Assembly: GCF_017302975.1 (NCBI RefSeq)
Contig: NZ_JAFIMT010000003.1
DNA length: 64,000 nucleotides
Reading direction: 5' to 3' (one strand)
DNA from: Corallococcus exiguus
GTDB taxonomy: Bacteria; Myxococcota; Myxococcia; Myxococcales; Myxococcaceae
Shown: in pieces, positions 1-30,895 of the stretch
How positions within the stretch are numbered: the first letter of the stretch is position 1
Layout: the number at the start of each line of letters is the position of its first letter
Program-made: the position numbers and the translations under genes
Notes under the pieces: model-generated
The model's database searches: none
What the model was told of the DNA's origin: nothing
Seen by the model: the letters and a program-made list of their open reading frames with translations, nothing else

Positions 1-864
1 CGGAGGCACCGCCTGCGCCACGACCTTCTGGGCCTCGCACAGTTGTTCGCAGAGCGCGTCCAGCGTGCTCTTGCACGCGGCATCTCCGCCCAGGTCCAGC
101 GTCTTCATCAACGACGCCAGCTTGCGAGCATCCTGCTTCGCTCGAGCCACCTGCCGTTCCTCCAGCGGGCCGTGGCGCTGCACCTCGATGCGATCCTGAA
201 GCCCCGCGACCACCGAGCCGGGCCCGAAGATGCCGCCCGTGGGAGCAGGAGCCCCTGGCTCACCCGCCTCGCCGGAAGGCGCACCGGCCCCACCACCCGT
301 TCCACCCGTCCCCGTGCCTCCACCTGTTCCCGTTCCCCCACCCGTCTCTGTCCCGGTGCCTGCTCCTGTCCCCGCGCCAACCGGAGGAGGCAGGAACGCG
401 CGCAGTTCGTTGAGCTCCGGCAGCAGGCGCAGCGACGCGAGCGTCTCGAACACGGCGGCGGTCTCTTCCCCCTCCGCCGCTGAATTCACCGCCGTCCCCG
501 GCGACAGCGTGCCGCGCACGTTCGCCTTGCAGCGGAAGTGCTGGAGCCCCACCGCCGCGGTGCCCGGGCTCGGCCGATAACCGATGTGCCCGAGCAGCTT
601 GGAGACGGAGTCCTCCAGCCGCGCGGTGGCGAGGAAGCCCTCCTCCGCCCAGGCCTGCTGATACGTCCACAGCACGTGCAGCGCGAGCGCTACGCTGTCC
701 AGCAGCCCCCGCCCCAGGTCCACCGAGGATGGCGCCGCGTACGCGAGCGGATTCCACGTGGGCGCTTCGTCCAGCCGGGTGAAGACGATGCGCGCCGACT
801 CGCCCAGCCGGGTGCGGAGCTGCTCATGCGTCAGCGCCTGGTGCGTGGAGGGAACGCGGCTCAT
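1..864 (-). CDS. Truncated Gly/Thr-rich protein, last gene of the eCIS-like operon (candidate tail fibre or unknown). The start ATG at 864..862 overlaps the baseplate stop as ATGA, and the gene runs past the window start.
   Basis: My translation of the reverse complement of 1..864 gives MSRVPSTHQALTHEQLRTRLGES...GAGTGAGTGTETGGGTGTGGGTGTGGTGGGAGAPSGEAGEPGAP...CKSTLDALCEQLCEAQ. The frame is open and has no stop. It is missing from the ORF track because it is open-ended. The 4-nt overlap with the upstream gene supports the call. Confidence 0.5.
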   Translation of the reverse strand, partial: MSRVPSTHQALTHEQLRTRLGESARIVFTRLDEAPTWNPLAYAAPSSVDLGRGLLDSVALALHVLWTYQQAWAEEGFLATARLEDSVSKLLGHIGYRPSPGTAAVGLQHFRCKANVRGTLSPGTAVNSAAEGEETAAVFETLASLRLLPELNELRAFLPPPVGAGTGAGTGTETGGGTGTGGGTGTGGTGGGAGAPSGEAGEPGAPAPTGGIFGPGSVVAGLQDRIEVQRHGPLEERQVARAKQDARKLASLMKTLDLGGDAACKSTLDALCEQLCEAQKVVAQAVPP

Positions 865-3800
865 CGCAGCCCTCCGCACACCTGCACGGTGAGGACGCCT
901 TCAGACCCCGGCCAGTAACCACCCCGAGCGGTGGCCACCTCGTCCGGTCCAATGGGAATGACGCCCGCCTCCAGCCGCTCCTGCGATTGGGGCTCCAGCC
1001 GGCGGAAGCGCTTCACCCGCACCGCCGTCACGCCCGGGACGCGCAGCACCGCCTGGTACAGGTCCGCGAGCTGCACGTCGCCGTTCAGGCCAGAGCGGTC
1101 CGGATCCAACAGGCCGCCGTCCCCCGCGATGGCGCCCACCACCGCGCCGCGCACCTGGTCGGCCTGCGCATACGGCGCGGCATCCACCTCCAGGTCCAAG
1201 TCGAGCGGCACCCATTTGGGCGGCAGCGCTTCCACGTCCACGCCCAGAAGGCGGATCTCCTCCAGGCGACTGCGCACCCCTGCCCATCGGCGCAGCAGCT
1301 CGTCGCGGTCGAGCATGTCCTCGTCACGCAGCAACACCGTCACGCGGATGACCGTGCGCAGGTCCCGGTCCACGGCGCGCGCCGAGGCTCCCGCCACCTC
1401 CGGCATCTGCTGGAGCATCCGCCCGTAGTCGTCGACCGTGACGGCGGACAGCGGCTGCGACACACCCGCCGGTGCGCGGTAGCGAATGGAGTCGAGCGAC
1501 TCCGCGTCGCGTCCCTCCACCGCGGGCAGCGGATTGTCCACGCGAACCAACGCGCGCAAGTCGTCCATCGACTGGGCCAGCAACTCACCCGCGGACGCGG
1601 AGCGCTGCGGATCCAACGGCACCTGGAGCAAACGCGTGAGCACGCCCTCCCCCACGTTGGCCACCGTCCCCAGCCCCACGCGCAGCGACAGTCCCAGCGT
1701 CGTCTCCCGGGGCGGAAGCACGGCGCCGTTGACGCCGTCGCCCCAGCGCAGGCTGGCGCCACCCGTGGGGGTCGCGCGCAGCACGAACACCTCGTCCCCT
1801 GGCCCCTGGATGGACAGGTCGTCCACCAGCGTCCAGGGGTCGTCCTCCACGCTCACCTGGAGCTGGGGCGTCCCGCGCCGCGACGTCTCCTCCGGCAGTG
1901 GATACCCGGAGGCCTGGACGCTGACCGGATGGAACGGCAGGGCGAACTCGCGCTCCTCGCTGCCGTCCACGACAGGGGACAGCAACGCGCGCCACTGCGC
2001 GAGGCTGCGCGCGAAGGGCTCCGCCGAGTCCGACTCGAAGCCCTCCGGAAGCGGCGTCACCGGCAGCCCGTGATGCGCGGGCACCACGTTGCCCAGCACC
2101 GTCGCACGAGGCCCCGGTGCGGGGTCTCCCGGCGCCAGGAACACCTCCGGCGCGAACCTGCGGGGATCCCATCCGACGAAGGTCGTATCGGTGGCGAGCG
2201 CCACGGACGTCACGCGCACCACGTGCCCGCCCTCGCCACGGCCCCGATAGAGGATCAGCCACCGGCCAGGCTCCAGCTCCGGGTACAGACCCGCGAGCGT
2301 CGCGCCCGTGTCCCCCAACTGCACGGACTCCGCGAGCGTCACGGTCTCCAGCCGGGGGAAGTACGACAGAGGCGACTCGGTGACGAACACCAGCGAGTGC
2401 TCGTCCGTGGAGACATTCGCCACCAGCGTCTCAGCGGGAATCTCCAGCACGCCGCCACCGGTGAGGAACTCCAGCGCGGTGGTGCCGGGCGGAAGCACCG
2501 ACAGGTTCAGTTCCTCCAACCGCGCCTTCACCAGCGCCGCGAGCGCCTCCGGATCCAACCGGAACCGCAGCATCACCGTGGCGGAGAGTCCCGGATCCGG
2601 CACGTAATCCAGTCCACGAGCATGGTCCTCCACGGAGCGCCGCAACCGGGCGTCTTCCAGGAAGCCCTCCACCACCGCGCGCTCCTGCTGGTACGCCAGC
2701 GAGTCCAACTGCGCGGCCACGGCCTCCAGCAACATGGTCGTGAAGTCCGCGGGCCCCCGGTCCTCCCACGGCGCCATCACCGTGCGGGCCCGCTCCAGCA
2801 TCACCGCCAGCAACGACTGCGCGTCGCGAGCCTGGTAGTCCACCAACGCGCCAGGCGCCGGACGCTCCGGGGCCGCGAGCCACGGGCGCGGCTGCGGATC
2901 CCTCACGTCACAACCCGGCACCACGTCCGGAGCCCACGCGCCAATGAATGGCGGCGGGTCGCGAGGACCATCGCCCGGAACCTGCACCGCCGCGCGAGAG
3001 ATGGCCGCATCCGGGACCAGCCGCAGGTCCACGGTCTCCGGGGGCGGCAGGCCGCCAGTGAGCAACACCGGGGGAACCTCCGGAGTCCCCGGCGTCCGGT
3101 ACGGCAGTGGCCCCACCTCCAGGAACGGAGGCGCCGCGCCCTGAGCGAACAGCGCGGGAGAGGCAGACAGCTCCGCGTCCGGCTCCAGCACGAACGGCGC
3201 GCCAACGATGCCCGTGAAGAGCGCGTCGTAGGCGCGAATCTCCCCGGGCCCCAGCCGCAGCCCATGCGCATGCCGGTGCCAGGTGAGCTGCGCCAGCAGA
3301 AGCTGCTCCGCCTGGAGCCAGCCCGCGTGCACCGACGTCCAGGCCTCGGTGCGTCGCACCAGCGCCGTGCGCAGTCCGCCCTCCAGTTGCAACGCGGTGC
3401 CGGTGATGACGAAGAGGGAGCAATCCTCGACGGCGATCTCCCCCGGCGTGCCCACGTCCAGCACCGGCTCCAGGCCGCCCAGCGGCGCGGCTACGTGCAG
3501 GCCCACGACGTCCGCATCGGTGGGAAACGCAGGCAGCGTCAGCGGCCCCACGACCGAAGCAGACAGTGCATCCAATGCGGCGATGAGCCAGTCCGACCAG
3601 GACGCCTCGGGCTGCGCGGACACCGGGACAGGCGCCGCTGACACACGGCTCACCTCCACGTCACGGACCACCACCGGATCCAGCGAAGGTCCCCCCAACA
3701 CCCGCATGCCCGTGGCGCGCGTTCCGGCGGAGACATCCTCCACCTGGCCCATGGCTACTTCGATGCTCCGCCCGCCCAGTGCGAGCACACCCATCGGGAA

Positions 3801-4628
3801 CCCGCCCTGCACCCGCTGCACGGTGAAGCCACGCACCTGGAGCGCGCCCGCCGAGGCCGCGATGAGCCCGATGCTCCACTGCACTCCGAACGCATCCACC
3901 TCGCTCACGGACACGTCCACCATGGACAGGCCCTCGCCCTCCTCCCGAGCCACCAGCACCCGCGCGCCGGTCGCGTTCGGCCCGGAGACCTGCGACACCG
4001 TGAGCCCGGACAGGTCCGCTCGGGTGAAGCCCGCGAGCTCCAGGCCCACGCCCGTCTCCATGCCCATGACGTCGCGAACCGCCACGTCCGCCCACTGCGA
4101 GCGTTGGCAGACAGCCCGCACGCCGAAGGCATCCCCCACCGTGGCCCTCACTCCGTCCACGGACAGGCCCGTGACGCGGGCCTCCGCCGCCAGCAACCGG
4201 AGCCCCGTCGCCACCTCACCCTTCGCCTGCGTCACCGTGAGCGAGTCGATGACCACCGTGCCGTCCGGCGTCTCCACGCTCATCGCCACGCAATCCCCTG
4301 ACGCCGTGGCGCTCACCGTGACGTCCGACACCTCCACCCGCGCCCCCAGGAGGACCAGCCCGGCGTCCACCGCCACCACCATCACGCGCGACAGTCCGGT
4401 GACGAGCCCCGTGACTTCGAGCGTCCCGCCGTCGAGCCGCAGCGTCACACCCGGGCCGCCCGTAAGCCGCAGCGAGTGCACGGGCGTGCCGATGACGAAG
4501 TTCGAGGTGAGCACGCCCTCGCCCACGGGCAGCACCCACTCCACCTCGCCCGGCGGCGTGGTCTCCAACGCGGCCTGGGCCTCCGCGAGCGACGCCTCCA
4601 GCGGCAATGTCAGGACCCGCGCGCTCAC
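861..4628 (-). CDS. Fused gp6/baseplate-J-like baseplate wedge protein, 1255 aa. GTG start at 4628 overlaps the gp25-like stop as GTGA.
   Basis: The C-terminus (...LYQAVLRVPGVTAVRVKRF...) is baseplate-J-like. The N-terminal third has VTGLSV/VSDVTV beta-helix-like repeats. The gene sits after the gp25-like gene as in eCIS and phage baseplate modules. The track ORF 861..5111 is over-extended. Confidence 0.7.
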   Translation of the reverse strand: MSARVLTLPLEASLAEAQAALETTPPGEVEWVLPVGEGVLTSNFVIGTPVHSLRLTGGPGVTLRLDGGTLEVTGLVTGLSRVMVVAVDAGLVLLGARVEVSDVTVSATASGDCVAMSVETPDGTVVIDSLTVTQAKGEVATGLRLLAAEARVTGLSVDGVRATVGDAFGVRAVCQRSQWADVAVRDVMGMETGVGLELAGFTRADLSGLTVSQVSGPNATGARVLVAREEGEGLSMVDVSVSEVDAFGVQWSIGLIAASAGALQVRGFTVQRVQGGFPMGVLALGGRSIEVAMGQVEDVSAGTRATGMRVLGGPSLDPVVVRDVEVSRVSAAPVPVSAQPEASWSDWLIAALDALSASVVGPLTLPAFPTDADVVGLHVAAPLGGLEPVLDVGTPGEIAVEDCSLFVITGTALQLEGGLRTALVRRTEAWTSVHAGWLQAEQLLLAQLTWHRHAHGLRLGPGEIRAYDALFTGIVGAPFVLEPDAELSASPALFAQGAAPPFLEVGPLPYRTPGTPEVPPVLLTGGLPPPETVDLRLVPDAAISRAAVQVPGDGPRDPPPFIGAWAPDVVPGCDVRDPQPRPWLAAPERPAPGALVDYQARDAQSLLAVMLERARTVMAPWEDRGPADFTTMLLEAVAAQLDSLAYQQERAVVEGFLEDARLRRSVEDHARGLDYVPDPGLSATVMLRFRLDPEALAALVKARLEELNLSVLPPGTTALEFLTGGGVLEIPAETLVANVSTDEHSLVFVTESPLSYFPRLETVTLAESVQLGDTGATLAGLYPELEPGRWLILYRGRGEGGHVVRVTSVALATDTTFVGWDPRRFAPEVFLAPGDPAPGPRATVLGNVVPAHHGLPVTPLPEGFESDSAEPFARSLAQWRALLSPVVDGSEEREFALPFHPVSVQASGYPLPEETSRRGTPQLQVSVEDDPWTLVDDLSIQGPGDEVFVLRATPTGGASLRWGDGVNGAVLPPRETTLGLSLRVGLGTVANVGEGVLTRLLQVPLDPQRSASAGELLAQSMDDLRALVRVDNPLPAVEGRDAESLDSIRYRAPAGVSQPLSAVTVDDYGRMLQQMPEVAGASARAVDRDLRTVIRVTVLLRDEDMLDRDELLRRWAGVRSRLEEIRLLGVDVEALPPKWVPLDLDLEVDAAPYAQADQVRGAVVGAIAGDGGLLDPDRSGLNGDVQLADLYQAVLRVPGVTAVRVKRFRRLEPQSQERLEAGVIPIGPDEVATARGGYWPGSEGVLTVQVCGGLR

Positions 4629-4999
4629 GGCGGCGCCTCCAGGTCCCGGCGGAACAGCTCCGCGTGTTCCTCGCCCGTCGCCAGCAGCGTGTAGAGGATG
4701 TCCACGTAGAGCGTGGCGTCCTCGGCGCTCACCTTCACCGCGTCCAGGCGCACCTGGTCGCGCATGAACTCCTGCACGTTGAGGCGGATGATGTACTCGG
4801 CCGTGGCGGCGGCCTCCGGGCTCGCGGCGCCGAACACCATCCGCTGCACGCCGCACCCGAAGCGCGGCCGGTTCACCCGCTCCCCGGGCAGCGTGAAGAG
4901 CAACTGCTCCAACTGCTGGCGGATGACCTGCGAGGGCCCCACCGTGCGCGGCGTGCCCAGGTCTCCCAGTTGGAAGGGGAAGTTCAGGCCGCGCCCCAT
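4625..4999 (-). CDS. gp25/GPW-like baseplate wedge protein, 124 aa
   Basis: MGRGLNFPFQLGDLG...VIRQQLEQLLFTLPGERVNRPRFGCGV matches the gp25/GPW lysozyme-like family signature. ATG at 4999 (cat at 4997-4999) overlaps the upstream stop as ATGA. Confidence 0.8.
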   Translation of the reverse strand: MGRGLNFPFQLGDLGTPRTVGPSQVIRQQLEQLLFTLPGERVNRPRFGCGVQRMVFGAASPEAAATAEYIIRLNVQEFMRDQVRLDAVKVSAEDATLYVDILYTLLATGEEHAELFRRDLEAPP

Positions 5000-6186
5000 C
5001 ACGCCACCCCGTTGAGCGCGTCGCGCGCCAGGTCCACGTCCACCTCGTAGCGGGCCAGCGCCTCCGCCCACACCCAGCGGTGCCGAGCGCCGCGCACGTA
5101 CCAGGTGCCATCCATCAGCTTGCCCGCCCCCACGAGCCCCACCGGACGCCGCGCGCGGAGGATGCGCTCGTAGCGCAGGCCCTGCACCGTGCCGTTCGCC
5201 TCCGCGAGCCAGTCCGCCTCGCGGTAGTCCGACCACGCCAGGTTCTCCACCTCCGGAACGTCGTGCGGCACGTCCACGTACTGCAGGCCCACCGCCTTCG
5301 TCTGGGGCCGCTTCGGCAGCACCGCCGCCATGCGCGCCTTCAGGATGTCCGCGCGGCTCGTGGGCCCCATGCGCGGGAAGCGAGGCGCCGTCACCGTGGC
5401 GGAGCGGATCCGCCGAGTACGCTCGTCGATGTGCTCGCCGTGCATTTCCGTGGGGCGGTGACTCTCCCAGCGCGCCTTGAGCTCCATGACGGTCGGCGTG
5501 GAGCGAGGAATGAGCGACAGGTCCGGCTGCTTCGGGCCACTTGGCCGGGGCAGGTGGAAGTGGCCCACGCTCTCCGGCGCCGCGTTGGCGCCCGCGCCCA
5601 CCGGCCCCTGCTTGCGCTCCACGAACACCTCGAAGCCATTGCGCCGCGCGAGCCACCGGAGGAGCGACGCATCCGTGCCGCGCTGGAGCACCACTGCCCG
5701 CGCCGGGTCGCGCACGGGCGCCGTCTCCTGCACGTCCAGCGCGAAGCCGTATTCACCGTACAGCTGCCGCACGATGCCCGCGTCGGACAGCCCGCTGAAC
5801 GAGCGCGTGCGCTCCTCCAGGTGCATCAGGCACGACGCGTCCAGCCCGTACACCTCCAGCGACGAGTCCGGCATGCGCGAGGGACCGAAGTACGGCTCCA
5901 CCGCGGTGATGTAGCCGTCGAACACCACGTCCTGCACATCCGGCGCATCACTGTCCGGAGCGCCCAGCCCGAAGCTGATGGTGACGCGCTTGAGCAGCGC
6001 GAAGCGCCCGTCCGCCAGCGCGTCCCAGTCCCCCGAGTTCGTGGGCGCCATGTCCAGGGACAGGTGGAAGGAGGACGCGTCGTCGGTGCGCTCGTCCACC
6101 TCCAGACGCGACACCCTGCCGCGGGCGTCCGTCATGGGCTGCCCGTCGATCCACAACTGGAGGAACGCCGCGCGCTGATCCGCCAT
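4999..6186 (-). CDS. Phage late-control-D / gp27-like baseplate hub (spike base) protein, about 395 aa
   Basis: Its size and its position between the gpX-like LysM gene and the gp25-like gene match a hub. The true start MADQRAAFLQLWIDGQ is at 6186, in an ATGA overlap with the LysM gene stop. Assignment to the GPD family is by recall, not by search. Confidence 0.5.
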   Translation of the reverse strand: MADQRAAFLQLWIDGQPMTDARGRVSRLEVDERTDDASSFHLSLDMAPTNSGDWDALADGRFALLKRVTISFGLGAPDSDAPDVQDVVFDGYITAVEPYFGPSRMPDSSLEVYGLDASCLMHLEERTRSFSGLSDAGIVRQLYGEYGFALDVQETAPVRDPARAVVLQRGTDASLLRWLARRNGFEVFVERKQGPVGAGANAAPESVGHFHLPRPSGPKQPDLSLIPRSTPTVMELKARWESHRPTEMHGEHIDERTRRIRSATVTAPRFPRMGPTSRADILKARMAAVLPKRPQTKAVGLQYVDVPHDVPEVENLAWSDYREADWLAEANGTVQGLRYERILRARRPVGLVGAGKLMDGTWYVRGARHRWVWAEALARYEVDVDLARDALNGVA

Positions 6187-6464
6187 CAGGGCTTCTCCGG
6201 GATGAACAGCACCGTTCCCGGATCCAGGAGCGCCTCGGGCTCGAAGGTGGGGTTGGCGTCCACGATGCGCCACGCCTGGTACGGGTCACTGAAGTAGCGC
6301 TGCGCGAGCAGGTCCAACCGGTCCCCCGCCACCACCTTGTGCAACAGGGACGTGGGCACGCGCGGCGCCACGCGGGGCACGTACAGCGACACCGTGGCGC
6401 CCTCCGGCCCCAGCGGCACCGCGTACGTCGGCAGGTCCTTGTGTCGCGAGGAAGGGTCGCTCAT
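6186..6464 (-). CDS. LysM-like phage tail protein X (gpX/gp53-like), 92 aa
   Basis: HKVVAGDRLDLLAQRYFSDPYQAWRIVDANPTFEPEALLDPGTVLFIP is a classic gpX-type LysM motif. Confidence 0.75.
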   Translation of the reverse strand: MSDPSSRHKDLPTYAVPLGPEGATVSLYVPRVAPRVPTSLLHKVVAGDRLDLLAQRYFSDPYQAWRIVDANPTFEPEALLDPGTVLFIPEKP

Positions 6465-6474
6465 GGCCGTCGCT

Positions 6475-7203: not shown

Positions 7204-7412
7204 CCGTTGCCCCGAGCACCGGGCGGCTCGCGCTGGGCGAGGCTCCGGGCAATGGCTTCGTTGTTCTTGTCCATCAGCGCCACCACCGTCTGGGTGAACA
7301 GCTTCACGAACTCCTTCGGGTTGTCCGGCACGCTGCGCAGCATCCACGCGAGCTCACGCTCCATCTCGCGGCGGGTGAGTCCAACCTGTCCTTGCACCGG
7401 GGGTGGGGCCAT
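7200..7412 (-). CDS. Small eCIS-associated protein, 70 aa
   Basis: ORF MAPPPVQGQVGLTRREMERELAWMLRSVPDNPKEF... sits in the operon frame between the Zn-ribbon gene and the 242-aa gene with short overlaps. Confidence 0.45.
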   Translation of the reverse strand: MAPPPVQGQVGLTRREMERELAWMLRSVPDNPKEFVKLFTQTVVALMDKNNEAIARSLAQREPPGARGNG

Positions 7413-7430
7413 GGCGTGCGCGTCCTCTCG

Positions 7431-8306
7431 TCAGCTCCAGCCATCCACCAGCGGACGGCCTTCCAGCTCGTTGCGAAGCAGCTCCAGGTAGCGCCACCGC
7501 CGGGCTCGCGGCAGGGCCAGGATGTCCGCCTCCGACCAGTGGTAGTGGAAGGCCAGCACGTGCACCTCCGTCTCCAATCGCGCCGCCCCGCCCCGCAGCT
7601 CGCGCGCCAGGAGCGCGAACGGATCCAGCTCCAGCTCCAACCACGCGGAGCACTTCGGACAGCGCGCCAGCAGCCCCAGGTCCGGAGCGCTCGTGCCATC
7701 CGCCAACGCCAGCGCCACCGCGTGCCGTGAGCGCGCGGGCAGCGCCAACCACGCGGAAGGCGTCAGCGTCTGCCCATCCACCACCACCAGCCGCGACCAC
7801 AAGAGCGCGGACCGCTCCGCCCGCGTGCCCTGCATTTCCGCGAGCAGCGCGTCGTCCTCGCCCGTGGGCTCGCGCACCTCCGCCCGTCCCTCCGGCAGCG
7901 CCACGGCGAGCACCTCCGGCGCCGCGTCCACCCGCTCCGGCGAGAGCGCGGAGATGCGCACGTCCACGTCCGCCATCGCCTCGCATCCAGGCGCGGGGCA
8001 GCGCGCCACCAGCGACGCGCGGTCCCCGTACATCCGGGCCCGCAGGTGCAGCGCCAGGTGGTGCCGGTCTCCGCGCGTGAGGCAGGCCGCCAGCTCCGCG
8101 TCCACGCACGAGTAATCCCCCAACCGTCCCAGACACGCCGCCAGCCACCCGCTCACCGCGCGCGGGCCGGGACGCTCGCCGGCCTGGGCCAGCGCCCACT
8201 CCTCGCGGCCGGTGAGCGGGCGCAGCTCGCCCTGGCGGTGACAGCGGCCGTCCTCGTCGAAGAGGCCGTGCGGCAGCAACACCGGGATGGGAGGTTCCAG
8301 GAGCAC
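7431..8306 (-). CDS. Zn-ribbon-containing eCIS-associated protein, 291 aa (two CxxC pairs: CPAPGC ... CPKCS)
   Basis: The ORF lies directly after tube gene 2. The apparent GTG start at 8306 is 1 nt from the tube stop. It has a Cys4 motif and no obvious homolog that I can name. Confidence 0.5.
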   Translation of the reverse strand: MLLEPPIPVLLPHGLFDEDGRCHRQGELRPLTGREEWALAQAGERPGPRAVSGWLAACLGRLGDYSCVDAELAACLTRGDRHHLALHLRARMYGDRASLVARCPAPGCEAMADVDVRISALSPERVDAAPEVLAVALPEGRAEVREPTGEDDALLAEMQGTRAERSALLWSRLVVVDGQTLTPSAWLALPARSRHAVALALADGTSAPDLGLLARCPKCSAWLELELDPFALLARELRGGAARLETEVHVLAFHYHWSEADILALPRARRWRYLELLRNELEGRPLVDGWS

Positions 8307-8307
8307 G

Positions 8308-8799
8308 TCAGACCACCAGCTCCAGCGTGAAGCCTTCGTGCTGGACCTCCACGGACTCGATGAGGATCTCGTTCGCCTCCGCGGCCAGCTCCGACATCGC
8401 GGTGAACTTCGAGACCCACGCGTTGCGCAGCACGAACTTCTTCACCGCGCGGTTGAAGTCCAGGTCGAAGACGAGGATCTCCACGGTGCGCCGGAAGTCC
8501 GGCTCCGCCGAGCGGAACCCGGGCGTGGCCTCATGGCGGATGAGCTGGGTGGCCCAGTCCCGGAACGTCGTGTCCTGGGTGAGGCCCGCCTCCAGCGTGA
8601 GTGGCTCGTAGTGCACGCGGCCCGGGGACAGCTCGTCCACGGAGGACGGGCTGTTGCCGGCGCGGAACTTCACCACCTCCACGGTGCCGGTGATGCCGGA
8701 GATCTTCCGGCACGCGGCCACCTCGAGGTTGTTGAAGAGCACGCGGAAGTTGAAGTTGCGGTACGGGTCGCGCTTCGTGGATTCGACGAATCGGGGCAT
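8308..8799 (-). CDS. Phage tail tube protein, gp19/Afp5-like paralog 2, 163 aa
   Basis: NFNFRVLF...NAWVSKF motifs are typical of contractile tail tube proteins. Confidence 0.85.
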   Translation of the reverse strand: MPRFVESTKRDPYRNFNFRVLFNNLEVAACRKISGITGTVEVVKFRAGNSPSSVDELSPGRVHYEPLTLEAGLTQDTTFRDWATQLIRHEATPGFRSAEPDFRRTVEILVFDLDFNRAVKKFVLRNAWVSKFTAMSELAAEANEILIESVEVQHEGFTLELVV

Positions 8800-8823
8800 G
8801 GCTTCACTCCTCGAATGGGGACG

Positions 8824-9387
8824 TCAGGGCGTCGGGAGGCTCGTCGCGGGCATGGACAGCACGGGCCGGGGCACCGGCTCCCAGCCCTCGTGGGTGAGCT
8901 CCAGCGACAGGAGCGCCACCTCGCCCGCCATGGCGTCCAGCTTGGGCAGGGCGTGGAACTTGCTCACCCACGCGTTGTGCACGTGGAAGCTGCGGATGCG
9001 CGCCTCCATGCCTCCGGGCGGCGGCACGTCCGTGGGGTGCGCGTAGGCGTCCCACACGTCGAGGAAGAGGTCGCGCTTCACCGGCTCGCCGGGCGCCTTG
9101 CCGGTGCGCGCGAACTCCAGCACCGCGCGCGCCCAGCGCTCCAGCGTGTCGTCCAGCGCCAGCCCCTGCTCCAGCACGAGCGGCTCCCAGTTCACCTTGT
9201 GGGGCTGGGCGTACCGGTGAAGGTTGTTGCCGCCCTCCCACGTCTCATAGGCGCCCACGCTGACGGACAGGCCGGACACGGTGCGCACGCCCGCCACGTA
9301 GTCGCCGGCCGCGGACGTGCTCATCCGGAGCCGGAACTGGAAGGTCCGCAGCGGGTTGCGGGCGTTGGCGGGGACGGGCGTGGGCAT
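8824..9387 (-). CDS. Phage tail tube protein, gp19/Afp1-like paralog 1, 187 aa
   Basis: The internal start MPTPVPANARNPLRTFQFRLRM lies at 9387 (cat at 9385-9387), in an ATGA overlap with the sheath stop. It contains the NAWVSKF motif. The track ORF 8824..10002 is over-extended. Confidence 0.85.
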   Translation of the reverse strand: MPTPVPANARNPLRTFQFRLRMSTSAAGDYVAGVRTVSGLSVSVGAYETWEGGNNLHRYAQPHKVNWEPLVLEQGLALDDTLERWARAVLEFARTGKAPGEPVKRDLFLDVWDAYAHPTDVPPPGGMEARIRSFHVHNAWVSKFHALPKLDAMAGEVALLSLELTHEGWEPVPRPVLSMPATSLPTP

Positions 9388-11714
9388 CAGGCCGCCAGCA
9401 GGCTCTTCTGGCTGATTTCGATGACCACGAACTCCGCGGGCTTCAGCGGCGCGAAGGCCACCTGCGCGGTGACGATGCCCGCGTCCACGTTCTCCTGCGG
9501 GTTGGTGCTCCGGTCGCAGACGACGCTGAAGGCCTCTTCCGGCGTGCTGCCCTGGAACGCGCCCTGCCGGAACAGCCCCAGCATGAACGACTCGATGGCG
9601 ACGCGGATGCGGCCCCAGAGCTCTTCGTCGTTGGGCTCGAACACCGCCCACATCAGGCCGCGCCTCAGCGACTCCTTGAGGAAGAGCGCGGTGCGGCGCA
9701 CCGGGATGTAGCGCCACTCCGGATCCGGCGACAGCGTGCGCGAGCCCCACGACACCAGGCCCACGCCGGGGAACTGGCGCAGGCAGTTGAGGCTCGCCGG
9801 GTTGAGCTGGTCCTGCTCCGCGTCGATGACGGGGTACTGGAGGCCCAACGCATTGGCGAGGGACGCCTCGATGCCAGCGGGCGCCTTCCACACGCCGCGC
9901 GTGGTGTCCGTGCGGGCGAAGAGGCCCGCCACGTGGCCGGAGGGCGGCACCAGCCGCGTGGGATTGCGGCCCACGCCCACGGGGTCCGCCACGCGGATCC
10001 ACGGGTAGAACATGGCCGAGTTCTTCGAGCGAGAGGGCAACCCCTCCACGAACTGCTTCGCGTCGTCCGGCACCACCGCGAAGTCCTTGTCCACACCGCC
10101 GGGGCCATCCGCGAGGAAGAAGCAGTCGCCCCGGTTGTCGCAGTACGCGACGCCCGCGGCGATGAACGACACCTCGTTCTTGCCGGGCAGCGCCACGATG
10201 TTGACCTCCTCCGTGTCCAGCGCGTGCAGGCCCGTGCGCAGCTTCGCGTCGCCCGCGAAGTCGGACGTGTCCAGGAGGCCCGCGCCGTCGTCGCCGCCCA
10301 GGAGCCGCAGGTTCGTCACCGAAGACGGACGCACCACCGGGTTCGCCGGCGAGTCATCCGAGTAGCCACGTGCGCGCGGCGCGAAGCCCAGCTGCCGGAG
10401 CATGGTGGGCACCGTGGGCTGGAGCGTTTCGCTGATGGAGAGCTGGAGCCCGTCGAAGGACTCCGCGCTCGTGCCCGCCGTGCCGGCGGCGGCCGTGCCG
10501 GTGAAGCCTGTGGCGGAGAGCGACAGCGTGGAGGTCCCCGCAGCGGTGGCCAGGCCCGTGATGACGGTGTTGCCCTGCGCGTCCGTCACCACCGACGCGA
10601 CCTTGCCGGCCAGCGCCACGCTCAGCGAGTGGTTCAACTCCGCGGGCGTCACCGCACCCTTGTCCACCGCCAGGATGGGGATGGGCACCACCGTGGTGCC
10701 GCCCGGCGGGCCCACGGTGACCTTCGCGTCCTCCGGGTCCAGGTCGTACGTCGCGCCCGTGGGCTTGGGGATGGTGAGCGTGGGCCCGGTGGCCACCTTC
10801 AGCGAAATCTCCGGCGAGTCCGTGCCGCCGATGACGAAGGTGTTGGTGAGACCCGCCGAGGTGACGGCCTGGGTGAGGAAGGTCTTGAGCTCCGTGGCGG
10901 TCAGCTGCACGCGGCCGTTGACGAACGCGGCGGCCGGCACGGCGGCCACCACCAGGGCCTGGGTGATGGAGACATCCAGCGTCGTGCGGGGCAGGTCCGG
11001 CTGGGCCTCGTCCCAGGTGGAGACCTGGAGCTTGCCGCCGTCATAGAGGCTGTACTTCGTGCTGGCCAGCACCGCGGCCTTGAGCCGGGGAGGCACGCCC
11101 GCGACGAGCACCGCGCCGGGCGCCCGGGCGGCCAGCGCCACCTGGTACTCGTCGCGCACGCGGAGGTAGCGGGAGATGTCGTTGATGCGGTCGCCGACAT
11201 AGTCCTCGCTGGACGGGTCCATGCGCACGTCCTCGAACGTCTCCAGGCGGCGCGTGGCCCCGGCCTCCGTCCACATCACCTCCACGCGAAACGCCTCGCT
11301 GGGGAAGTTGAGGGAGTCGCTCACGTTGACGCGGAGGTAGTCGGACCACTCGCCCGCGCCCCGCGCCAGGAACGTGAGGGCGTTGAGGCTGCCGCCCGCT
11401 CTGGCGAGCAGGGGCGTGGACACGCCGCCCACCGCGTCGGAGGGCAGCACGCGCACGACGTAGGCGCGCCGCCCGCCCGAATCGAAGAAGGCCTCCACCG
11501 CCTGCGCGACGAGCCCCGCCTCCCCGGGCTCGTGTCCGCCAAAGGCCCGCTCGTACTCGGCGAAGCCGGTGACGAACGAGGCCAGGGCCGGGATGCCTCG
11601 CGCCGTGCGTCCGACGAACGCCGCCGTGGACGTGCCCACCCCTTCGATGGGGCGCGCACCGGCACTGATTTCCTCGACATAGACGCCCGGATGCAGTCGC
11701 TCAGCCACGTTCAT
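9387..11714 (-). CDS. Contractile tail sheath protein, 775 aa
   Basis: The N-terminus MNVAERLHPGVYVEEISAG matches the sheath-family signature. Its size is typical for eCIS or phage sheaths. AGGAGG lies immediately upstream. Confidence 0.9.
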   Translation of the reverse strand: MNVAERLHPGVYVEEISAGARPIEGVGTSTAAFVGRTARGIPALASFVTGFAEYERAFGGHEPGEAGLVAQAVEAFFDSGGRRAYVVRVLPSDAVGGVSTPLLARAGGSLNALTFLARGAGEWSDYLRVNVSDSLNFPSEAFRVEVMWTEAGATRRLETFEDVRMDPSSEDYVGDRINDISRYLRVRDEYQVALAARAPGAVLVAGVPPRLKAAVLASTKYSLYDGGKLQVSTWDEAQPDLPRTTLDVSITQALVVAAVPAAAFVNGRVQLTATELKTFLTQAVTSAGLTNTFVIGGTDSPEISLKVATGPTLTIPKPTGATYDLDPEDAKVTVGPPGGTTVVPIPILAVDKGAVTPAELNHSLSVALAGKVASVVTDAQGNTVITGLATAAGTSTLSLSATGFTGTAAAGTAGTSAESFDGLQLSISETLQPTVPTMLRQLGFAPRARGYSDDSPANPVVRPSSVTNLRLLGGDDGAGLLDTSDFAGDAKLRTGLHALDTEEVNIVALPGKNEVSFIAAGVAYCDNRGDCFFLADGPGGVDKDFAVVPDDAKQFVEGLPSRSKNSAMFYPWIRVADPVGVGRNPTRLVPPSGHVAGLFARTDTTRGVWKAPAGIEASLANALGLQYPVIDAEQDQLNPASLNCLRQFPGVGLVSWGSRTLSPDPEWRYIPVRRTALFLKESLRRGLMWAVFEPNDEELWGRIRVAIESFMLGLFRQGAFQGSTPEEAFSVVCDRSTNPQENVDAGIVTAQVAFAPLKPAEFVVIEISQKSLLAA

Positions 11715-11724
11715 CCTCCTGGTT

Positions 11725-13683
11725 TCAGATGGTCCCGCGCCTGGCGGTATCGACTTCGGTCACAGACGTTCCCGGATGGCCGCTGGCGCCTCGCGCGGCA
11801 CCGCGCGCGATGAGGTCCACGCGCGGCGTCTCGACGAGGCGTGCGGTGCTGCGCGCGTTCGGCTCGTCCATCAGCGCGGAGACCCGGTAGTCCACGCAGC
11901 AGCGGTACAGGTGGTTCAAGAGGTCGTCGCGGCGGCGCAGCTGCGTCTGGAAGAAGAAGCACTCCTCCTGGAACACGAGCGTGCGGCCCCGGGCCCAGGC
12001 GCCCTCCACGGGGCGGCTGAGCGTCACGCGGTCGCCATCCAGCCCCAGCACCAGCGCCTGGAAGCGCTGCTTGCCCACGCGGTAGCCATCGTCGCTCGAG
12101 CCCAGCACCACCACGTCGCCGGGCTTGAGGCGCGAGGCCGCGGTGACGGAGCGGCGCAGCGCCGGATCCAACGGCCCCACGGGCTCCGCCACCAGGTGCA
12201 CGTGGTCCACCGTGAAGTCCAGCGGAGTGCCCGTCTGCGCCCCCAGCGTGAGCACCATGTCGCTCGCGGCGACGGTGACACCCGGCGCGGCGACAGGCGG
12301 CGCGGGCGAGGCCTCCGCGTCCTGGAGCGGCTGTGGCACCCCGTCCGCCGACAGCCACACCACGCCCTCCCCCGCCTCCAGCCGCGCGTGCAGCACCACG
12401 CCTGCCTCCAGCCGCTCCGCCGGAATCCGCCAGCGCGTCTCCGCGACCTGCGTCCCGGTGGCCTGCGCCAGCGTCGCGGTGGCCACCACCTCGCCCAGGA
12501 GCCGGGTGTCCACCTGCTCGTAGCGGACGATGAGCCGCAGCACGGGCTGCCCCTGCGCCATCAGCACGGCCACCGGCAACGACTGCGCGGCCACGGCGCC
12601 AGCGGCGACGCGCAGCCCCACCGACAGCGCCAGTCCGTCCGGGGCCGGATTGTCGGCGTGGAAGGGGTCGGGCACGGCGGGCATCGGGTAGACGAGGACG
12701 GAGGCGGTGCCGGTGCCGGACAGGCGCAGGCCCTCGGCGGCGGGAAGGAAGGACGCGCCGGGCGTCAGGTCCACGCGTCCGCCGCGCGCTCGCTCCAGGT
12801 TCTGGTCGCTGGCCTCCAGGTGCACCAGGGACAGGGCCGTGGTGGGCTCCCCGCGCGTCAGCAGGCGGACCGTCGTGGCGCCTTCGGGCACGTCCTCGGC
12901 AAGCAGCGACGGGCGCAGCACCATCTGCCCGCGAGTGGGGATGGAGAGCGCCACCGTGTCCATGATGGACGCCAGGTCCACCTGCGAGCCCGCCCACAGG
13001 TCCACCTGCACATCGATGGCCATGGCCTTGGGCGCGCGAATCTTGCTGAGGAACACCCTGCCCTCTTGAGAGCGCTCCGGTGGCTCCAGGCCCAGAGGCC
13101 CTTCGATGCCGCCAGCGACGGGCAGCACCTCCACGCTGGAGCGGAACTCCATGGAGGGGATGCCCGCGTCGGAGCTGATCGCGAGCCGGCTCCCCTCCAC
13201 GTCCCAGCGCGCGATGACGCCAGCGAGCGCCTCCAACAGCGGCGGGTCCGTGAGCGGCACGCCCGTGGGCTCCTGGAAGAGTCCACCGGTGAGCGCATCC
13301 GCCAGCCGCGCGTTGATGGCGGCGGCGAGCGCGGGGCCTGTCGCGGTGGAAGCAAACGAGCCACCCGGCAGCCCCGAGAGGGTGACGGTGGCGCGGCCAT
13401 CCAGGCGCAGCTTGAGCGAGCCATTGGGCGGCACGCTGTCCCCGGAAGCACGAGGCCTGCCGACGAGGTGGCCCGGCACACGGAAGGTGGCGACGCCCGT
13501 GCGGCCGTTCTCTCGCTCGGGTTCGGGGAACAGGCCCAGCGGGCCGACAACGGAGAGGAATGGCACACGCGAAGGCCGGTAGCCTTCATCCACATAGCCA
13601 TGCGCGGCGAAGACGCGCACGTCGCCGCTGCGCAAGGCCACCCGGCCCTGCCATAGCAGTCCGCTGAGGATCTCGCGAATCAC
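11725..13683 (-). CDS. Operon-first hypothetical protein, 652 aa, encoded upstream of the sheath (GTG start). It has no Walker motifs. Function unknown (candidate cap or accessory protein).
   Basis: A long GC3-biased ORF in the operon frame, 10 nt upstream of the sheath start. I recognise no family. Confidence 0.5.
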   Translation of the reverse strand: MIREILSGLLWQGRVALRSGDVRVFAAHGYVDEGYRPSRVPFLSVVGPLGLFPEPERENGRTGVATFRVPGHLVGRPRASGDSVPPNGSLKLRLDGRATVTLSGLPGGSFASTATGPALAAAINARLADALTGGLFQEPTGVPLTDPPLLEALAGVIARWDVEGSRLAISSDAGIPSMEFRSSVEVLPVAGGIEGPLGLEPPERSQEGRVFLSKIRAPKAMAIDVQVDLWAGSQVDLASIMDTVALSIPTRGQMVLRPSLLAEDVPEGATTVRLLTRGEPTTALSLVHLEASDQNLERARGGRVDLTPGASFLPAAEGLRLSGTGTASVLVYPMPAVPDPFHADNPAPDGLALSVGLRVAAGAVAAQSLPVAVLMAQGQPVLRLIVRYEQVDTRLLGEVVATATLAQATGTQVAETRWRIPAERLEAGVVLHARLEAGEGVVWLSADGVPQPLQDAEASPAPPVAAPGVTVAASDMVLTLGAQTGTPLDFTVDHVHLVAEPVGPLDPALRRSVTAASRLKPGDVVVLGSSDDGYRVGKQRFQALVLGLDGDRVTLSRPVEGAWARGRTLVFQEECFFFQTQLRRRDDLLNHLYRCCVDYRVSALMDEPNARSTARLVETPRVDLIARGAARGASGHPGTSVTEVDTARRGTI

Positions 13684-16853: not shown

Positions 16854-17043
16854 CGCCGACAAAAACATACACATATCCCACCCGGCCCCAAGCGCGCCGC
16901 CGGAACACCAGGACTTGGCAGGTCGCCAACCCCATGCATCAGGGCGGCGCCGACCCATTCCTGCTCATCTCCTCAGGGCACGCCTATGTTTCGTATCGCT
17001 GTCTGGGTATGATGCCGGCCGGGGGAGCGCGTCCCGCGCCATC

Positions 17044-27144: not shown

Positions 27145-27176
27145 GATTGCGGTCCTCCAATTTGCTGCGGGGTTTG

Positions 27177-28694: not shown

Positions 28695-28744
28695 GGCAGG
28701 AGGTCTCGTTCAGGAAGGTCGTGGGGAGGGGCTTGCGCCCGGCA

Positions 28745-29305: not shown

Positions 29306-29614
29306 GAGTACCCCCAAGAACTGAACCGCCGTTTTGTGAAGGAATTGATAAACCATACCAATACACAAAAGCAATACACCCCCAACACACAACCCGACAC
29401 GATGGGGCGTTATCACCCGGGGTGACAAGAACGACCCAACCCATGGCATTTCTCGCCCTTCAGGGCATGAAACCAGACACGGTGGATCATCCAGGCTCAC
29501 TTGACGTCACAGGCTCCAGGCCGGTAGCTTTTTCTAAACACTGTCACCCAGCCCGAGCAAGCTTTTGCTCCCGGCGGTCCCCGTGACAGGAAACCCGCTC
29601 CCGCCGCCCCTGCC
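29306..29614. promoter_or_regulatory. Divergent tssB/tssK promoter region. It contains the 8-bp palindrome TGACGTCA at 29502-29509 and the inverted repeat TCACCCGGGGTGA.
   Basis: A 309-bp AT-richer intergenic region between divergent operons. The palindromes were read directly from the sequence. Confidence 0.5.
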
Positions 29615-30868: not shown

Positions 30869-30895
30869 CGGCGGACCGACGGGGGAACGGCGCGC

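What the first reader, a model, noticed from the sequence alone, without database searches (positions are those of the whole stretch)
1..13683. Phage-tail-like contractile injection system (eCIS/tailocin-like) operon with no head or packaging genes in view
The minus strand carries twelve collinear genes. Nearly every junction is a 4-nt ATGA or GTGA overlap, which suggests tight translational coupling. The genes, in order, are:
- an unknown 652-aa protein
- a sheath
- two gp19-like tube proteins
- a Zn-ribbon protein
- a 70-aa protein
- a 242-aa protein
- a gpX-like LysM protein
- a gpD/gp27-like hub
- a gp25-like protein
- a 1255-aa gp6/J fusion
- a Gly/Thr-rich gene

I see no capsid, portal, terminase, integrase or lysis genes. 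This locus therefore reads as a standalone contractile nanomachine rather than a prophage.

There is no in-operon PAAR, no recognisable tape-measure protein, no AAA+ ATPase and no canonical cap in the 13.7 kb. Those functions may lie beyond the window start, or may be supplied by the atypical proteins at 11725-13683 and 7431-8306.

The operon sits only about 6 kb from a separate T6SS-like cluster, and an orphan DUF4280 tip gene lies between them.
Basis: partly seen in the sequence, partly recalled or inferred. Interest (0 to 1): 0.8.

Follow-up and report, generated by a model that had tools for sequence, protein, structure and literature searches.

The report
Headless phage-tail-like injection system operon
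The region is the first half of a roughly 36-kb gene cassette in the soil predator Corallococcus that builds a headless, phage-tail-like contractile injection device; this type of locus is already catalogued, but none has been studied experimentally.

Summary
The call holds. Window 1-13683 (minus strand) carries 12 tightly packed genes of a contractile injection system (CIS):
- a lineage-specific 652-aa protein
- a 775-aa sheath
- two gp19 tube paralogs
- a Cys4 tail-assembly-chaperone-like protein
- a 70-aa protein
- a CIS_tube initiator
- a LysM/gpX protein
- a gpD-like hub
- gp25
- two gp6/J-like wedge proteins

The window is Corallococcus exiguus. In C. coralloides the operon continues for about 22 kb. 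That stretch has a Tail_P2_I/Kelch adaptor, a 2537-aa DUF6519 fibre, a gp5/V-type spike, a weak tape-measure candidate and more. It has no capsid, portal, terminase or integrase. The same gene order occurs in Micromonospora and Mycolicibacterium, and its downstream half also in Mesorhizobium.

Corrections:
- Only 4 of 11 junctions are 4-nt overlaps.
- The "Zn-ribbon" protein is homologous to the chaperone-position gene of myophage BCD7.
- The Gly/Thr-rich gene is a second J-like wedge.
- The DUF4280 gene abuts TssF of the neighbouring T6SS.

No AAA+ ATPase and no DUF4255 cap were found anywhere in the cassette. The 652-aa protein has a lectin-like β-sandwich and no detectable cap similarity.

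A 2026 catalogue already lists the C. coralloides and C. exiguus loci as eBAP5-fibre eCIS clusters. The system is known and uncharacterised; whether it acts outside the cell is inferred.

The parts
11725..13683 (-). G1: first gene of the operon, 652 aa, specific to this CIS lineage. It has a central concanavalin-A-like lectin/glucanase-fold β-sandwich and an invariant C-terminal motif. Its role is unknown; candidates are a decoration or adhesin, or a non-canonical terminator.
9387..11714 (-). Contractile sheath (Cis2/Afp2-like), 775 aa, with a lineage-specific insert of about 320 aa (residues about 150-470).
   Evidence: Phage_sheath_1 and Phage_sheath_1C. Best solved relatives are Halogeometricum Cis2 9ezm (4e-90) and Streptomyces CIS sheaths 8bky/8bl4 (about 1e-80), against about 1e-40 for Afp/PVC. 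Equally similar to the myophage BCD7 sheath.
8824..9387 (-). Tube paralog 1, 187 aa (gp19/Hcp fold family). Whether it is the main tube or an adaptor is unresolved.
   Evidence: Phage_T4_gp19 1.2e-19. TIGR02241 9e-17, just below its cut-off (61.2 against 62.4 bits), and a weak CIS5_fam match. 32% identical to tube paralog 2.
8308..8799 (-). Tube paralog 2, 163 aa.
   Evidence: Phage_T4_gp19 4.8e-29. PDB matches to the CIS inner tubes 9r9h_B, 7b5h_AN and 7adz_1a.
7431..8306 (-). Protein with two tandem tail-assembly-chaperone-like modules, a Cys4 site (C103, C108, C216, C219) and a C-terminal DUF6760-like helical domain.
7200..7412 (-). 70-aa protein of unknown role, conserved in position.
   Evidence: No family hit. 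Orthologs of 66-67 aa sit at the same position in Micromonospora and Mycolicibacterium.
6475..7203 (-). Tube initiator / baseplate hub adaptor (CIS_tube family, Cis7/Afp7-like but without the LysM domain), 242 aa.
   Evidence: PF19266 CIS_tube 8e-07, 29.4 bits against a 27 cut-off. The family is also recorded for the orthologs in L013 and L014.
6186..6464 (-). LysM / gpX-like small hub protein, 92 aa.
   Evidence: Phage_tail_X 9e-04 and LysM 4e-03, both below cut-off. PHROG 46 'baseplate hub' 3.7e-07.
4999..6186 (-). gpD/gp27-like baseplate hub, 395 aa, with no gp5-type needle. The needle is a separate gene downstream of the window.
   Evidence: Phage_GPD 1e-04, 22 bits against a 30.1 cut-off. 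PHROG 52 'tail protein' 3e-05. The Mycolicibacterium ortholog carries a weak Phage_GPD hit. No PDB sequence hit.
4625..5002 (-). gp25/gpW-like wedge protein (sheath initiator), 125 aa.
   Evidence: GPW_gp25 4e-14.
861..4628 (-). J1: gp6/gpJ-like baseplate wedge protein, 1255 aa, with an N-terminal extension of about 650 aa. The extension varies in length between orthologs, and its fold was not determined.
   Evidence: TIGR02243 2e-37. PHROG 6 and 219 'baseplate wedge'. Baseplate_J 20.8 bits against a 21.1 cut-off. Orthologs are 1156-1502 aa.
1..864 (-). J2: N-terminal 288 aa of a second gp6/J-like wedge paralog (837-846 aa in relatives), with a Gly/Thr-rich linker at 232-390. The gene is cut by the window edge.
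   Evidence: The full-length orthologs L011:13768-16308 and L012:3035-5548 match TIGR02243 at 8e-45 and PHROG 219 at 2e-14. 18-nt repeat at 301-346.

Best explanation
Window 1-13683 is the promoter-proximal 12 genes of a chromosomal contractile injection system cassette of about 21 genes and 36 kb in Corallococcus exiguus. It is a headless phage-tail-like particle of the Tail_P2_I-adaptor / DUF6519 (eBAP5) fibre subtype.

Shown by sequence:
- The window encodes the trunk: one long sheath and two tube paralogs.
- It encodes a tail-assembly-chaperone-like protein.
- It encodes the inner baseplate (tube initiator, LysM/gpX, gpD-like hub) and the wedge (gp25 and two gp6/J paralogs).
- In orthologous loci the operon goes on to a Tail_P2_I/Kelch adaptor, a fibre of about 2,540 aa with a β-helix, a gp5/V-type spike, a protein of about 540 aa that weakly resembles tape measures, and conserved unknowns.

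Inferred from established CIS and myophage mechanics:
- The hub and spike nucleate the baseplate.
- The tube grows on the initiator, with chaperone and tape-measure help.
- The sheath polymerises around the tube in a high-energy extended state.
- Fibre engagement of a target surface rearranges the wedges.
- The sheath contracts and drives the tube and spike through the target envelope.

The giant fibre and adaptor make action on the outside of another cell the most likely mode, at about 55%. That would mean released particles or particles exposed after lysis, plausibly serving predation or competition.

The cassette has no recognisable AAA+ ATPase or DUF4255 cap. Termination and any cargo loading must therefore work differently or be supplied in trans.
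For: - Gene identities.
- Operon packing.
- Organism and synteny in 11 Corallococcus loci. G1 is 100% identical to a C. exiguus protein.
- Downstream content in C. exercitus, C. carmarthensis and C. coralloides: Tail_P2_I + Kelch, DUF6519 + Beta_helix, Phage_base_V 6e-24 + Gp5_trimer_C.
- All 12 window genes have full-length orthologs in the same order in Micromonospora and Mycolicibacterium, at 35-55% identity.
- The downstream 9-gene module is also conserved in Micromonospora and Mesorhizobium.
- Tape-measure PHROG hits recur in three orthologs of the protein of about 540 aa: 3.7e-4, 4.5e-6 and 0.024.
- Chaperone homology.
- No head or packaging genes in the window or in 27 kb of the C. coralloides locus. 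Phage BCD7, by contrast, has them within 8.5 kb of its sheath.
- DUF6519 is described as the eCIS fibre anchor eBAP5, lying downstream of Tail_P2_I (PMC12923769).
- C. coralloides DSM 2259 and C. exiguus are listed as eBAP5 eCIS clusters in that paper's Supplementary Data 7.
Against: - Everything beyond position 1 comes from orthologous loci, not from the window's own genome.
- The hub, LysM and Pfam Baseplate_J hits are below curated cut-offs.
- Two of the eight 'core backbone' eCIS components of Chen et al. 2019 (Afp15 ATPase, Afp16/DUF4255 cap) were not found in the window, in the C. coralloides or Micromonospora cassette as sampled end to end, or in the halves seen in Mycolicibacterium and Mesorhizobium.
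- No lysis or release genes were seen.
- The closest solved sheaths belong to systems that are not extracellular: Halogeometricum (membrane-bound, T6SS-like) and Streptomyces (cytoplasmic).
- The tape-measure assignment rests on weak hits to compositionally biased families.
- No particle, expression or target data exist.
Confidence: 0.8

Rival explanations
1. The same cassette builds a CIS that stays with the cell. It would be free in the cytoplasm or anchored to the inner membrane, firing from inside like the Streptomyces CIS (stress or developmental cell death) or the Halogeometricum 'archaeal T6SS' (contact-dependent killing), and would not be released.
For: - The closest solved sheaths are exactly these two systems: 4e-90 and about 1e-80, against about 1e-40 for Afp/PVC.
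- The in-window position where myophage BCD7 has its tape measure holds only a 70-aa gene.
- No cap, no ATPase and no lysis genes were found.
- Myxobacteria undergo developmental lysis (my own knowledge).
Against: - The conserved fibre of about 2,540 aa (DUF6519/eBAP5) and the Tail_P2_I/Kelch adaptor have no obvious use inside the producer. The Streptomyces clusters lack a conventional fibre.
- No hydrophobicity-predicted transmembrane protein in the 12 window genes.
- No homolog of the membrane adaptors was looked for successfully.
- The DUF1622 membrane protein next door is not conserved with the cassette outside Corallococcus.
- The sheath is equally close to a real phage sheath, so sheath similarity does not predict the mode of action.
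Confidence: 0.25
2. It is a decaying prophage tail module, or a P2/R-pyocin-type tailocin (a bacteriocin that kills by depolarisation without cargo), and not a dedicated injection system.
For: - The sheath is 39-40% identical to that of myophage BCD7.
- The chaperone-like gene is homologous to BCD7 gp090.
- The order tube initiator, X, D, W, J, I, fibre, V recalls P2 (my own knowledge).
- No ATPase or cap is present, as in R-type pyocins (my own knowledge).
Against: - No head, packaging, integrase or lysis genes in 64 kb of the window or in 27 kb of the ortholog.
- All ORFs are intact. The cassette is syntenic in 11 Corallococcus loci from at least 9 species and occurs in the same order in two other phyla.
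- Similarity to the pyocin sheath is only 1e-12.
- In Mesorhizobium a 2057-aa eCIS_core (DUF4157) protein follows the cassette. DUF4157 is an eCIS-associated domain often carried by eCIS toxins.
Confidence: 0.06
3. The operon is an accessory part of the neighbouring T6SS (20151-36659) and shares the DUF4280 tip.
For: The two clusters are 6.5 kb apart, and a DUF4280 PAAR-like gene lies between them.
Against: - The T6SS cluster has its own VipA/VipB sheath and its own TssF, TssG, TssK and membrane parts.
- The CIS cassette occurs without that neighbour in Micromonospora and Mycolicibacterium.
- Unrelated + strand genes separate the two clusters.
- The DUF4280 gene is 2 nt from the TssF stop, on the other strand from the CIS operon.
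Confidence: 0.02

Closest known systems
eCIS of the Tail_P2_I-adaptor / eBAP5 (DUF6519) fibre subtype, catalogued in Nat Commun 2026 (PMC12923769)
   Same: The orthologous loci have a DUF6519 N-terminal domain on a very large β-helix ('mega pectin lyase'-like) fibre, directly downstream of a Tail_P2_I gene, which follows Baseplate_J-type genes. C. coralloides DSM 2259 and C. exiguus are listed in that paper's eBAP5 table.
   Different: The catalogue is computational and centres on the fibres. In the passages I searched it does not discuss the 652-aa first gene, the chaperone-like Cys4 protein, the separate spike, or the absence of ATPase and cap. No member has been purified or imaged, as far as the held literature shows.
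Halogeometricum borinquense CIS ('archaeal T6SS', dbeCIS clade IIa; PDB 9EZM; PMC11566945)
   Same: It is the best solved sheath match (4e-90). It has two 'putative baseplate assembly' (TIGR02243-type) paralogs, two tube genes, and a DUF6760 gene plus a 178-aa gene that together correspond to the Cys4 protein.
   Different: It has a DUF4255 cap, an AAA ATPase and DUF4157 proteins next to the trunk genes, and a 6-TM anchor candidate. Its sheath is 574 aa, without the 320-aa insert. It is bound to the cytoplasmic membrane.
Streptomyces cytoplasmic CIS (CIS-Sc, dbeCIS IId; PDB 8BKY/8BL4; PMC10066040)
   Same: It is the second-best solved sheath match (about 1e-80). It has two tube paralogs and no typical tape measure.
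   Different: It lacks a conventional fibre and acts inside the producer. The only Streptomyces cluster annotated here, on an S. clavuligerus plasmid, carries DUF4255 upstream of the sheath.
Afp / PVC (Serratia, Photorhabdus; eCIS lineage I)
   Same: Both are headless sheath-tube-baseplate particles with gp25, gp6-like wedges and fibres.
   Different: Their sheaths are much more distant (about 1e-40). Afp/PVC have three sheath paralogs, a fused VgrG-type spike, PAAR, Afp14 tape measure, Afp15 ATPase and Afp16 cap. None of these is recognisable in this arrangement here.
Tail module of Bacillus myophage BCD7
   Same: The sheath is 39-40% identical. The order sheath, tube, tube, chaperone-like gene is the same, and the chaperone-like gene is homologous (E 8e-13).
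   Different: BCD7 has terminase, portal and major head genes just upstream, and a 1736-aa tape measure directly after the chaperone-like gene. Here a 70-aa gene sits at that position and there are no head genes.

Membership tests
Contractile injection system / contractile phage-tail superfamily | Single-chain phage-type sheath (Phage_sheath_1 + 1C) | tested here: met
   47.3 and 42 bits, above the cut-offs; 21 solved sheaths matched.
Contractile injection system / contractile phage-tail superfamily | gp19/Hcp-type inner tube | tested here: met
   two paralogs, 70.9 and 101.3 bits; matches to solved CIS tubes.
Contractile injection system / contractile phage-tail superfamily | Baseplate core: gp25, gp6/J, gp27/gpD hub, gp5/V spike | tested here: met
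   gp25 is above cut-off. J1 and J2 match TIGR02243 at 2e-37 and 8e-45, just under the equivalog cut-off. The hub is weak, at 22 against 30.1 bits. The spike (Phage_base_V, 6e-24) is seen only in orthologous loci beyond the window.
Headless CIS as opposed to prophage | No capsid, portal, terminase or integrase contiguous with the tail genes | tested here: met
   None among the roughly 45 window proteins scanned. None in 27 kb of the C. coralloides locus. Positive control: BCD7. The window's own genome beyond position 1 was not seen.
eCIS sensu dbeCIS (Chen et al. 2019 eight-component core) | Afp15-type AAA+ ATPase in the locus | tested here: not met
   No AAA hit in the 12 window proteins, nor in the downstream or upstream genes of L012, L013, L014, L017 or L018. 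No conserved Walker A motif in the conserved unknowns; the single match, in the Mesorhizobium 547-aa protein, is absent from its two orthologs. A copy elsewhere in the genome, for example in the second eCIS cluster of C. coralloides, was not testable.
eCIS sensu dbeCIS (Chen et al. 2019 eight-component core) | Afp16 / DUF4255 (Pvc16_N) tail terminator cap | tested here: not met
   No Pfam hit. hhalign of G1, the 243-aa family and the 720-aa family against two DUF4255 proteins gives probability below 1% in every case. The fold searches of G1 listed only lectin-like folds among their top 50-60 hits.
eCIS sensu dbeCIS (Chen et al. 2019 eight-component core) | Afp7-like LysM tube initiator, Afp8 hub/spike, Afp9, Afp11 | tested here: met
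   All are present, but split differently. CIS_tube and LysM are separate genes, and hub and spike are separate genes.
eBAP5 / Tail_P2_I eCIS subtype (PMC12923769) | DUF6519-anchored fibre immediately downstream of a Tail_P2_I adaptor gene | tested here: met
   Tail_P2_I 5e-07 and DUF6519 1e-10, in L011 and L009; same in C. coralloides. Both genes lie outside the window. Catalogue listing.
Extracellular mode of action (defining for 'eCIS' and 'tailocin') | Particles released from the producer and active from outside | not testable with these tools
   Only indirect evidence: the presence of a fibre (for), the absence of lysis genes and the nearest sheath relatives being cell-bound (against).
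R-type tailocin (pyocin R2 / P2-like) | P2-type short sheath, in-line tape measure, dedicated lysis cassette | tested here: not met
   Pyocin sheath match only 1e-12. No tape measure between the chaperone-like gene and the initiator. No holin or endolysin hit in the scanned genes.
Type VI secretion system | VipA/VipB two-chain sheath, TssJLM membrane complex, ClpV | tested here: not met
   The operon has none of these. They (except ClpV, which was not seen) belong to the separate cluster at 20151-36659.

The most novel reading that the evidence does not exclude
This cassette would represent a distinct, horizontally spread CIS lineage (Myxococcota, Actinomycetota, Alphaproteobacteria). The lineage would assemble and terminate its tail without the AAA+ ATPase and DUF4255 cap, which are treated as near-universal eCIS core. 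In their place it would use a lineage-specific 650-aa lectin-domain protein encoded ahead of the sheath, and a tape-measure-like protein moved to the 3' end next to a separate spike. In a predatory myxobacterium it could be a fibre-targeted predation weapon sitting beside a T6SS.
Probability: 0.3. Interest if true: 0.6.

Novelty: already known. Interest (0 to 1): 0.35.

Why it matters
As an identification it adds little. Corallococcus loci of this type are already listed as eCIS clusters with an eBAP5 fibre, and CIS biology is well established.

Its value is as a lead. The subtype has no purified particle, structure, target or phenotype. It lacks two components regarded as eCIS core, the ATPase and the cap. 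It carries a rare, strictly co-occurring 650-aa protein with a lectin fold.

It also sits in a genetically tractable group of predatory bacteria, 6.5 kb from a T6SS. One survey found that eCIS and T6SS rarely share a genome.

A myxobacterial model could show how such particles terminate, load cargo and choose prey, and whether fibre-bearing relatives of the cytoplasmic Streptomyces system really act outside the cell.

Tried and rejected
- Exact-sequence look-ups of J1 and tube 2 found no record. The window's own flanks could therefore not be fetched, and orthologous loci were used instead.
- PDB sequence or profile searches of G1, the Cys4 protein, J1 and the hub gave nothing usable.
Pfam, NCBIfam and PHROGs are negative. 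hhalign against two DUF4255 proteins gives probability below 1%. The only region ever paired is G1's invariant C-terminal 'LYxCxVDYRVSAL' motif with the C-terminal strand of DUF4255, and it is not significant. The fold searches returned only ConA-like lectin, PL7 and botulinum-toxin binding-domain jelly rolls among their top 50-60 hits.
- G1 against the CarboxypepD_reg-like gene that precedes the sheath in S. clavuligerus showed no similarity.
- The 243-aa and 720-825-aa conserved downstream proteins were tested as cap candidates, with no similarity. They were tested as ATPase candidates: no conserved Walker A motif, the one match (Mesorhizobium 547-aa protein) being absent from its orthologs.
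- G1 has no tblastn match in 50,697 phage records.
- The 118-aa minus-strand ORF at 19729-20085 was rejected as the DUF4280 gene. The real gene is the + strand ORF at 19661-20149.
- A promoter and terminator scan upstream of G1 found nothing, which was expected for a 72% GC myxobacterium.
- Literature searches for a myxobacterial CIS study found none.

Full report
**What is there.** The window is 70-72% GC. I called genes by third-position GC and checked every frame. Twelve genes on the minus strand fill 1-13683:
- G1, 11725-13683
- sheath, 9387-11714
- tube paralogs, 8824-9387 and 8308-8799
- a 291-aa Cys4 protein, 7431-8306
- a 70-aa gene, 7200-7412
- a 242-aa gene, 6475-7203
- a 92-aa gene, 6186-6464
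- a 395-aa hub, 4999-6186
- gp25, 4625-5002
- a 1255-aa J-type protein, 861-4628
- the first 288 codons of a further gene, 1-864

Four are 4-nt overlaps, two are 1-nt overlaps, one is a 1-nt gap, and four are gaps of 10-24 nt with Shine-Dalgarno-like sequences.

**Identity of the parts.** Pfam supports several calls above its own cut-offs: sheath (Phage_sheath_1 and 1C), both tubes (Phage_T4_gp19), the 242-aa protein (CIS_tube, the tube-initiator family) and gp25.

The J-type protein misses the Pfam Baseplate_J cut-off by 0.3 bits. It does match NCBIfam TIGR02243 'putative baseplate assembly protein' at 2e-37 and PHROG baseplate-wedge families at 8e-15. The truncated last gene, read full-length in relatives, matches the same families at 8e-45 and 2e-14. 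The 'Gly/Thr-rich gene' is therefore a second gp6/J-like wedge paralog with a low-complexity linker.

The hub (Phage_GPD, 22 bits) and the LysM/gpX protein are sub-threshold calls. Position, PHROG hits and orthologs support them.

**The two 'atypical' proteins.**

The stronger evidence is profile-profile homology to gp090 of Bacillus myophage BCD7: 97.8% probability, E 8e-13, 224 columns, covering both Cys pairs. gp090 lies between the second tube gene and the tape measure, which is the classical chaperone slot. The N-terminal module and the C-terminal helices also match two separate genes of the Halogeometricum CIS cluster, a 178-aa hypothetical and a DUF6760 protein.

I therefore read it as a tail-assembly-chaperone-like factor, not as a cap, ATPase or tape measure.

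*G1 (652 aa).* It has no hit in Pfam, NCBIfam, PHROGs, the PDB by sequence, or 50,697 phage genomes. Its family is tiny: 66 clusters among 1.84 billion representatives. Homologs occupy the same first position in the two actinobacterial loci examined here.

**Where it comes from and what lies beyond the window.** G1 is 100% identical to a Corallococcus exiguus protein. J1 is 83-94% identical to syntenic loci in 11 Corallococcus genomes. Exact look-ups of window proteins failed, so I read the continuation in close relatives.

In C. exercitus, C. carmarthensis and C. coralloides DSM 2259 the operon continues as follows:
- the full J2 gene
- an ~815-bp spacer with 153-bp tandem repeats
- a 1213-aa Tail_P2_I + Kelch protein
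- a 2537-aa DUF6519 + β-helix protein
- genes of 113 aa and 69 aa
- a 395-aa spike (Phage_base_V 6e-24, Gp5_trimer_C)
- a 64-aa gene
- a 536-aa helical protein
- a 720-aa protein

The protein of about 540 aa gives weak tape-measure PHROG hits in three orthologs from three phyla: 3.7e-4, 4.5e-6 and 0.024. This makes it a candidate, not an assignment. No capsid, portal, terminase, integrase or lysis gene appears.

Upstream of G1 lie divergently transcribed host genes: DUF1622, a PAS histidine kinase and an AMP-binding enzyme.

**Conservation.** All twelve window genes have full-length orthologs, in the same order, in Micromonospora pattaloongensis and Mycolicibacterium mageritense, at 35-55% identity. 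The nine-gene downstream module is conserved in Micromonospora and Mesorhizobium. In Mesorhizobium a 2057-aa eCIS_core (DUF4157) protein follows it. This is a horizontally mobile, intact cassette of about 21 genes, not prophage debris.

**What is missing.** No AAA+ ATPase and no DUF4255 cap was found in the window, or in the parts of the cassette seen in four other genomes (end to end in C. coralloides and Micromonospora, one half each in Mycolicibacterium and Mesorhizobium). This covers the conserved unknowns that I tested directly against DUF4255.

Chen et al. 2019 count both among the eight 'core backbone' eCIS components. The characterised Halogeometricum cluster has both next to its trunk genes. 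No PAAR gene is in the operon. The DUF4280 gene exists (19661-20149, 1.8e-34). It is on the + strand, 2 nt from the stop of TssF, so it most likely serves the neighbouring T6SS.

**Relation to known systems.** The sheath is closest to Halogeometricum Cis2 (PDB 9EZM, 4e-90) and the Streptomyces CIS sheaths (about 1e-80). It is far from Afp/PVC (about 1e-40) and pyocin (1e-12). The first two are a membrane-bound 'archaeal T6SS' and a cytoplasmic CIS.

The sheath is just as similar to the sheath of a genuine myophage, BCD7. Sheath affinity therefore says little about mode of action.

The fibre end is more telling. DUF6519 has been defined as the eCIS fibre anchor domain eBAP5. It typically lies downstream of a Tail_P2_I adaptor and often carries pectin-lyase-type β-helices. 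[quoted passage not shown]

Its Supplementary Data 7 lists C. coralloides DSM 2259 (cluster 244) and C. exiguus GCA_003668935.1 (cluster 3057) among eBAP5 clusters. C. coralloides also has a second eCIS cluster with two eBAP3 fibres. I could not verify gene-for-gene that cluster 244 is COCOR_03262-03275. However, COCOR_03275 is the DUF6519 giant found in that genome.

**Mechanism.**

*Shown.* The gene set covers a complete contractile tail: sheath, tube, initiator, hub, spike, wedges, adaptor and fibre. It also includes a chaperone homolog.

*Inferred.* From the established mechanics of contractile tails I infer baseplate-nucleated tube and sheath assembly, fibre-triggered baseplate opening, sheath contraction and spike-first penetration. 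Because a huge fibre and adaptor are conserved with the cassette, I favour action on other cells from outside, at about 55%. A cell-bound mode like Streptomyces or Halogeometricum remains a serious rival, at about 25%.

*Unknown.* How the tail is terminated, whether cargo is carried, and how particles would leave the cell.

**Verdict.** The locus belongs to a kind that is already catalogued for this very species, so novelty is low. The residual interest lies in three things: the cap-less and ATPase-less architecture, the rare lectin-fold first gene, and the chance of a tractable myxobacterial model.

Noticed in passing
window 20151-36659 (both strands), plus 36669-44284: This is a genuine T6SS cluster: TssF, TssG, VipA/VipB, TssK/VasE, a DUF2345-like protein, DotU, IcmF and IglE_N. 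No Hcp, VgrG or ClpV was recognised among the ORFs scanned. It is followed by a 1952-aa HYDIN/ASH Ig-repeat protein and a LysM + Lipase_3 protein that could be effectors. The IglE_N lipoprotein hints at a non-canonical T6SS subtype (my own knowledge).
   Followed up: partly
window 19661-20149 (+): A DUF4280 PAAR-like gene (1.8e-34). The longest ORF overlaps the end of the AMP-binding gene, and the gene ends 2 nt from the TssF stop, convergent with it. It is on the opposite strand to the CIS operon, so it more likely caps the T6SS spike.
   Followed up: partly
window 44000-48000: GC drops from about 0.70 to 0.58-0.59. The ORFs scanned there (44281-45264 and others) have no Pfam hit. This may be foreign DNA.
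   Followed up: no
window 232-390 (J2 linker; 18-nt repeat at 301-346): A Gly/Thr-rich low-complexity linker encoded by a short tandem repeat. Several Corallococcus draft contigs end 200-800 nt after the J1 stop (L001-L004), so assemblies seem to break at this repeat.
   Followed up: partly
L012 5577-6153 (C. coralloides); also L011 about 16308-17117: A non-coding spacer of about 815 bp sits inside the operon, between J2 and the Tail_P2_I gene, and holds 153-bp tandem repeats (3.8 copies, 71% matches). Its function is unknown. It lies outside the window.
   Followed up: no
window 9387-11714, sheath residues about 150-470: An insert of about 320 aa relative to Halogeometricum Cis2 and the BCD7 sheath. 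The 782-791-aa actinobacterial orthologs share it. It is presumably an extra surface domain.
   Followed up: partly
L012 17646-23317; L017 and L018, same positions: The conserved tail end of the cassette contains, after the fibre, genes of about 110 aa and 70 aa, the spike, a gene of about 65 aa, a tape-measure-like protein of about 540 aa with a hydrophobic segment, and a 720-825-aa protein with no family hit. A 243-aa protein is also conserved in Corallococcus and Mesorhizobium, with a shorter (165-aa) homolog in Micromonospora.
   Followed up: partly
C. coralloides DSM 2259 genome (not in the window): The 2026 fibre catalogue lists a second eCIS cluster (cluster 245, two eBAP3 fibres) in the same genome, about 960 gene numbers away. 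It could supply the ATPase and cap in trans.
   Followed up: no
window 56611-60904 (-): Two adjacent paralogous proteins combine CarboxypepD_reg repeats with RCC1 repeats. A carboxypeptidase-regulatory-like protein also precedes the sheath in the S. clavuligerus CIS locus (L016). This is probably a coincidence.
   Followed up: no
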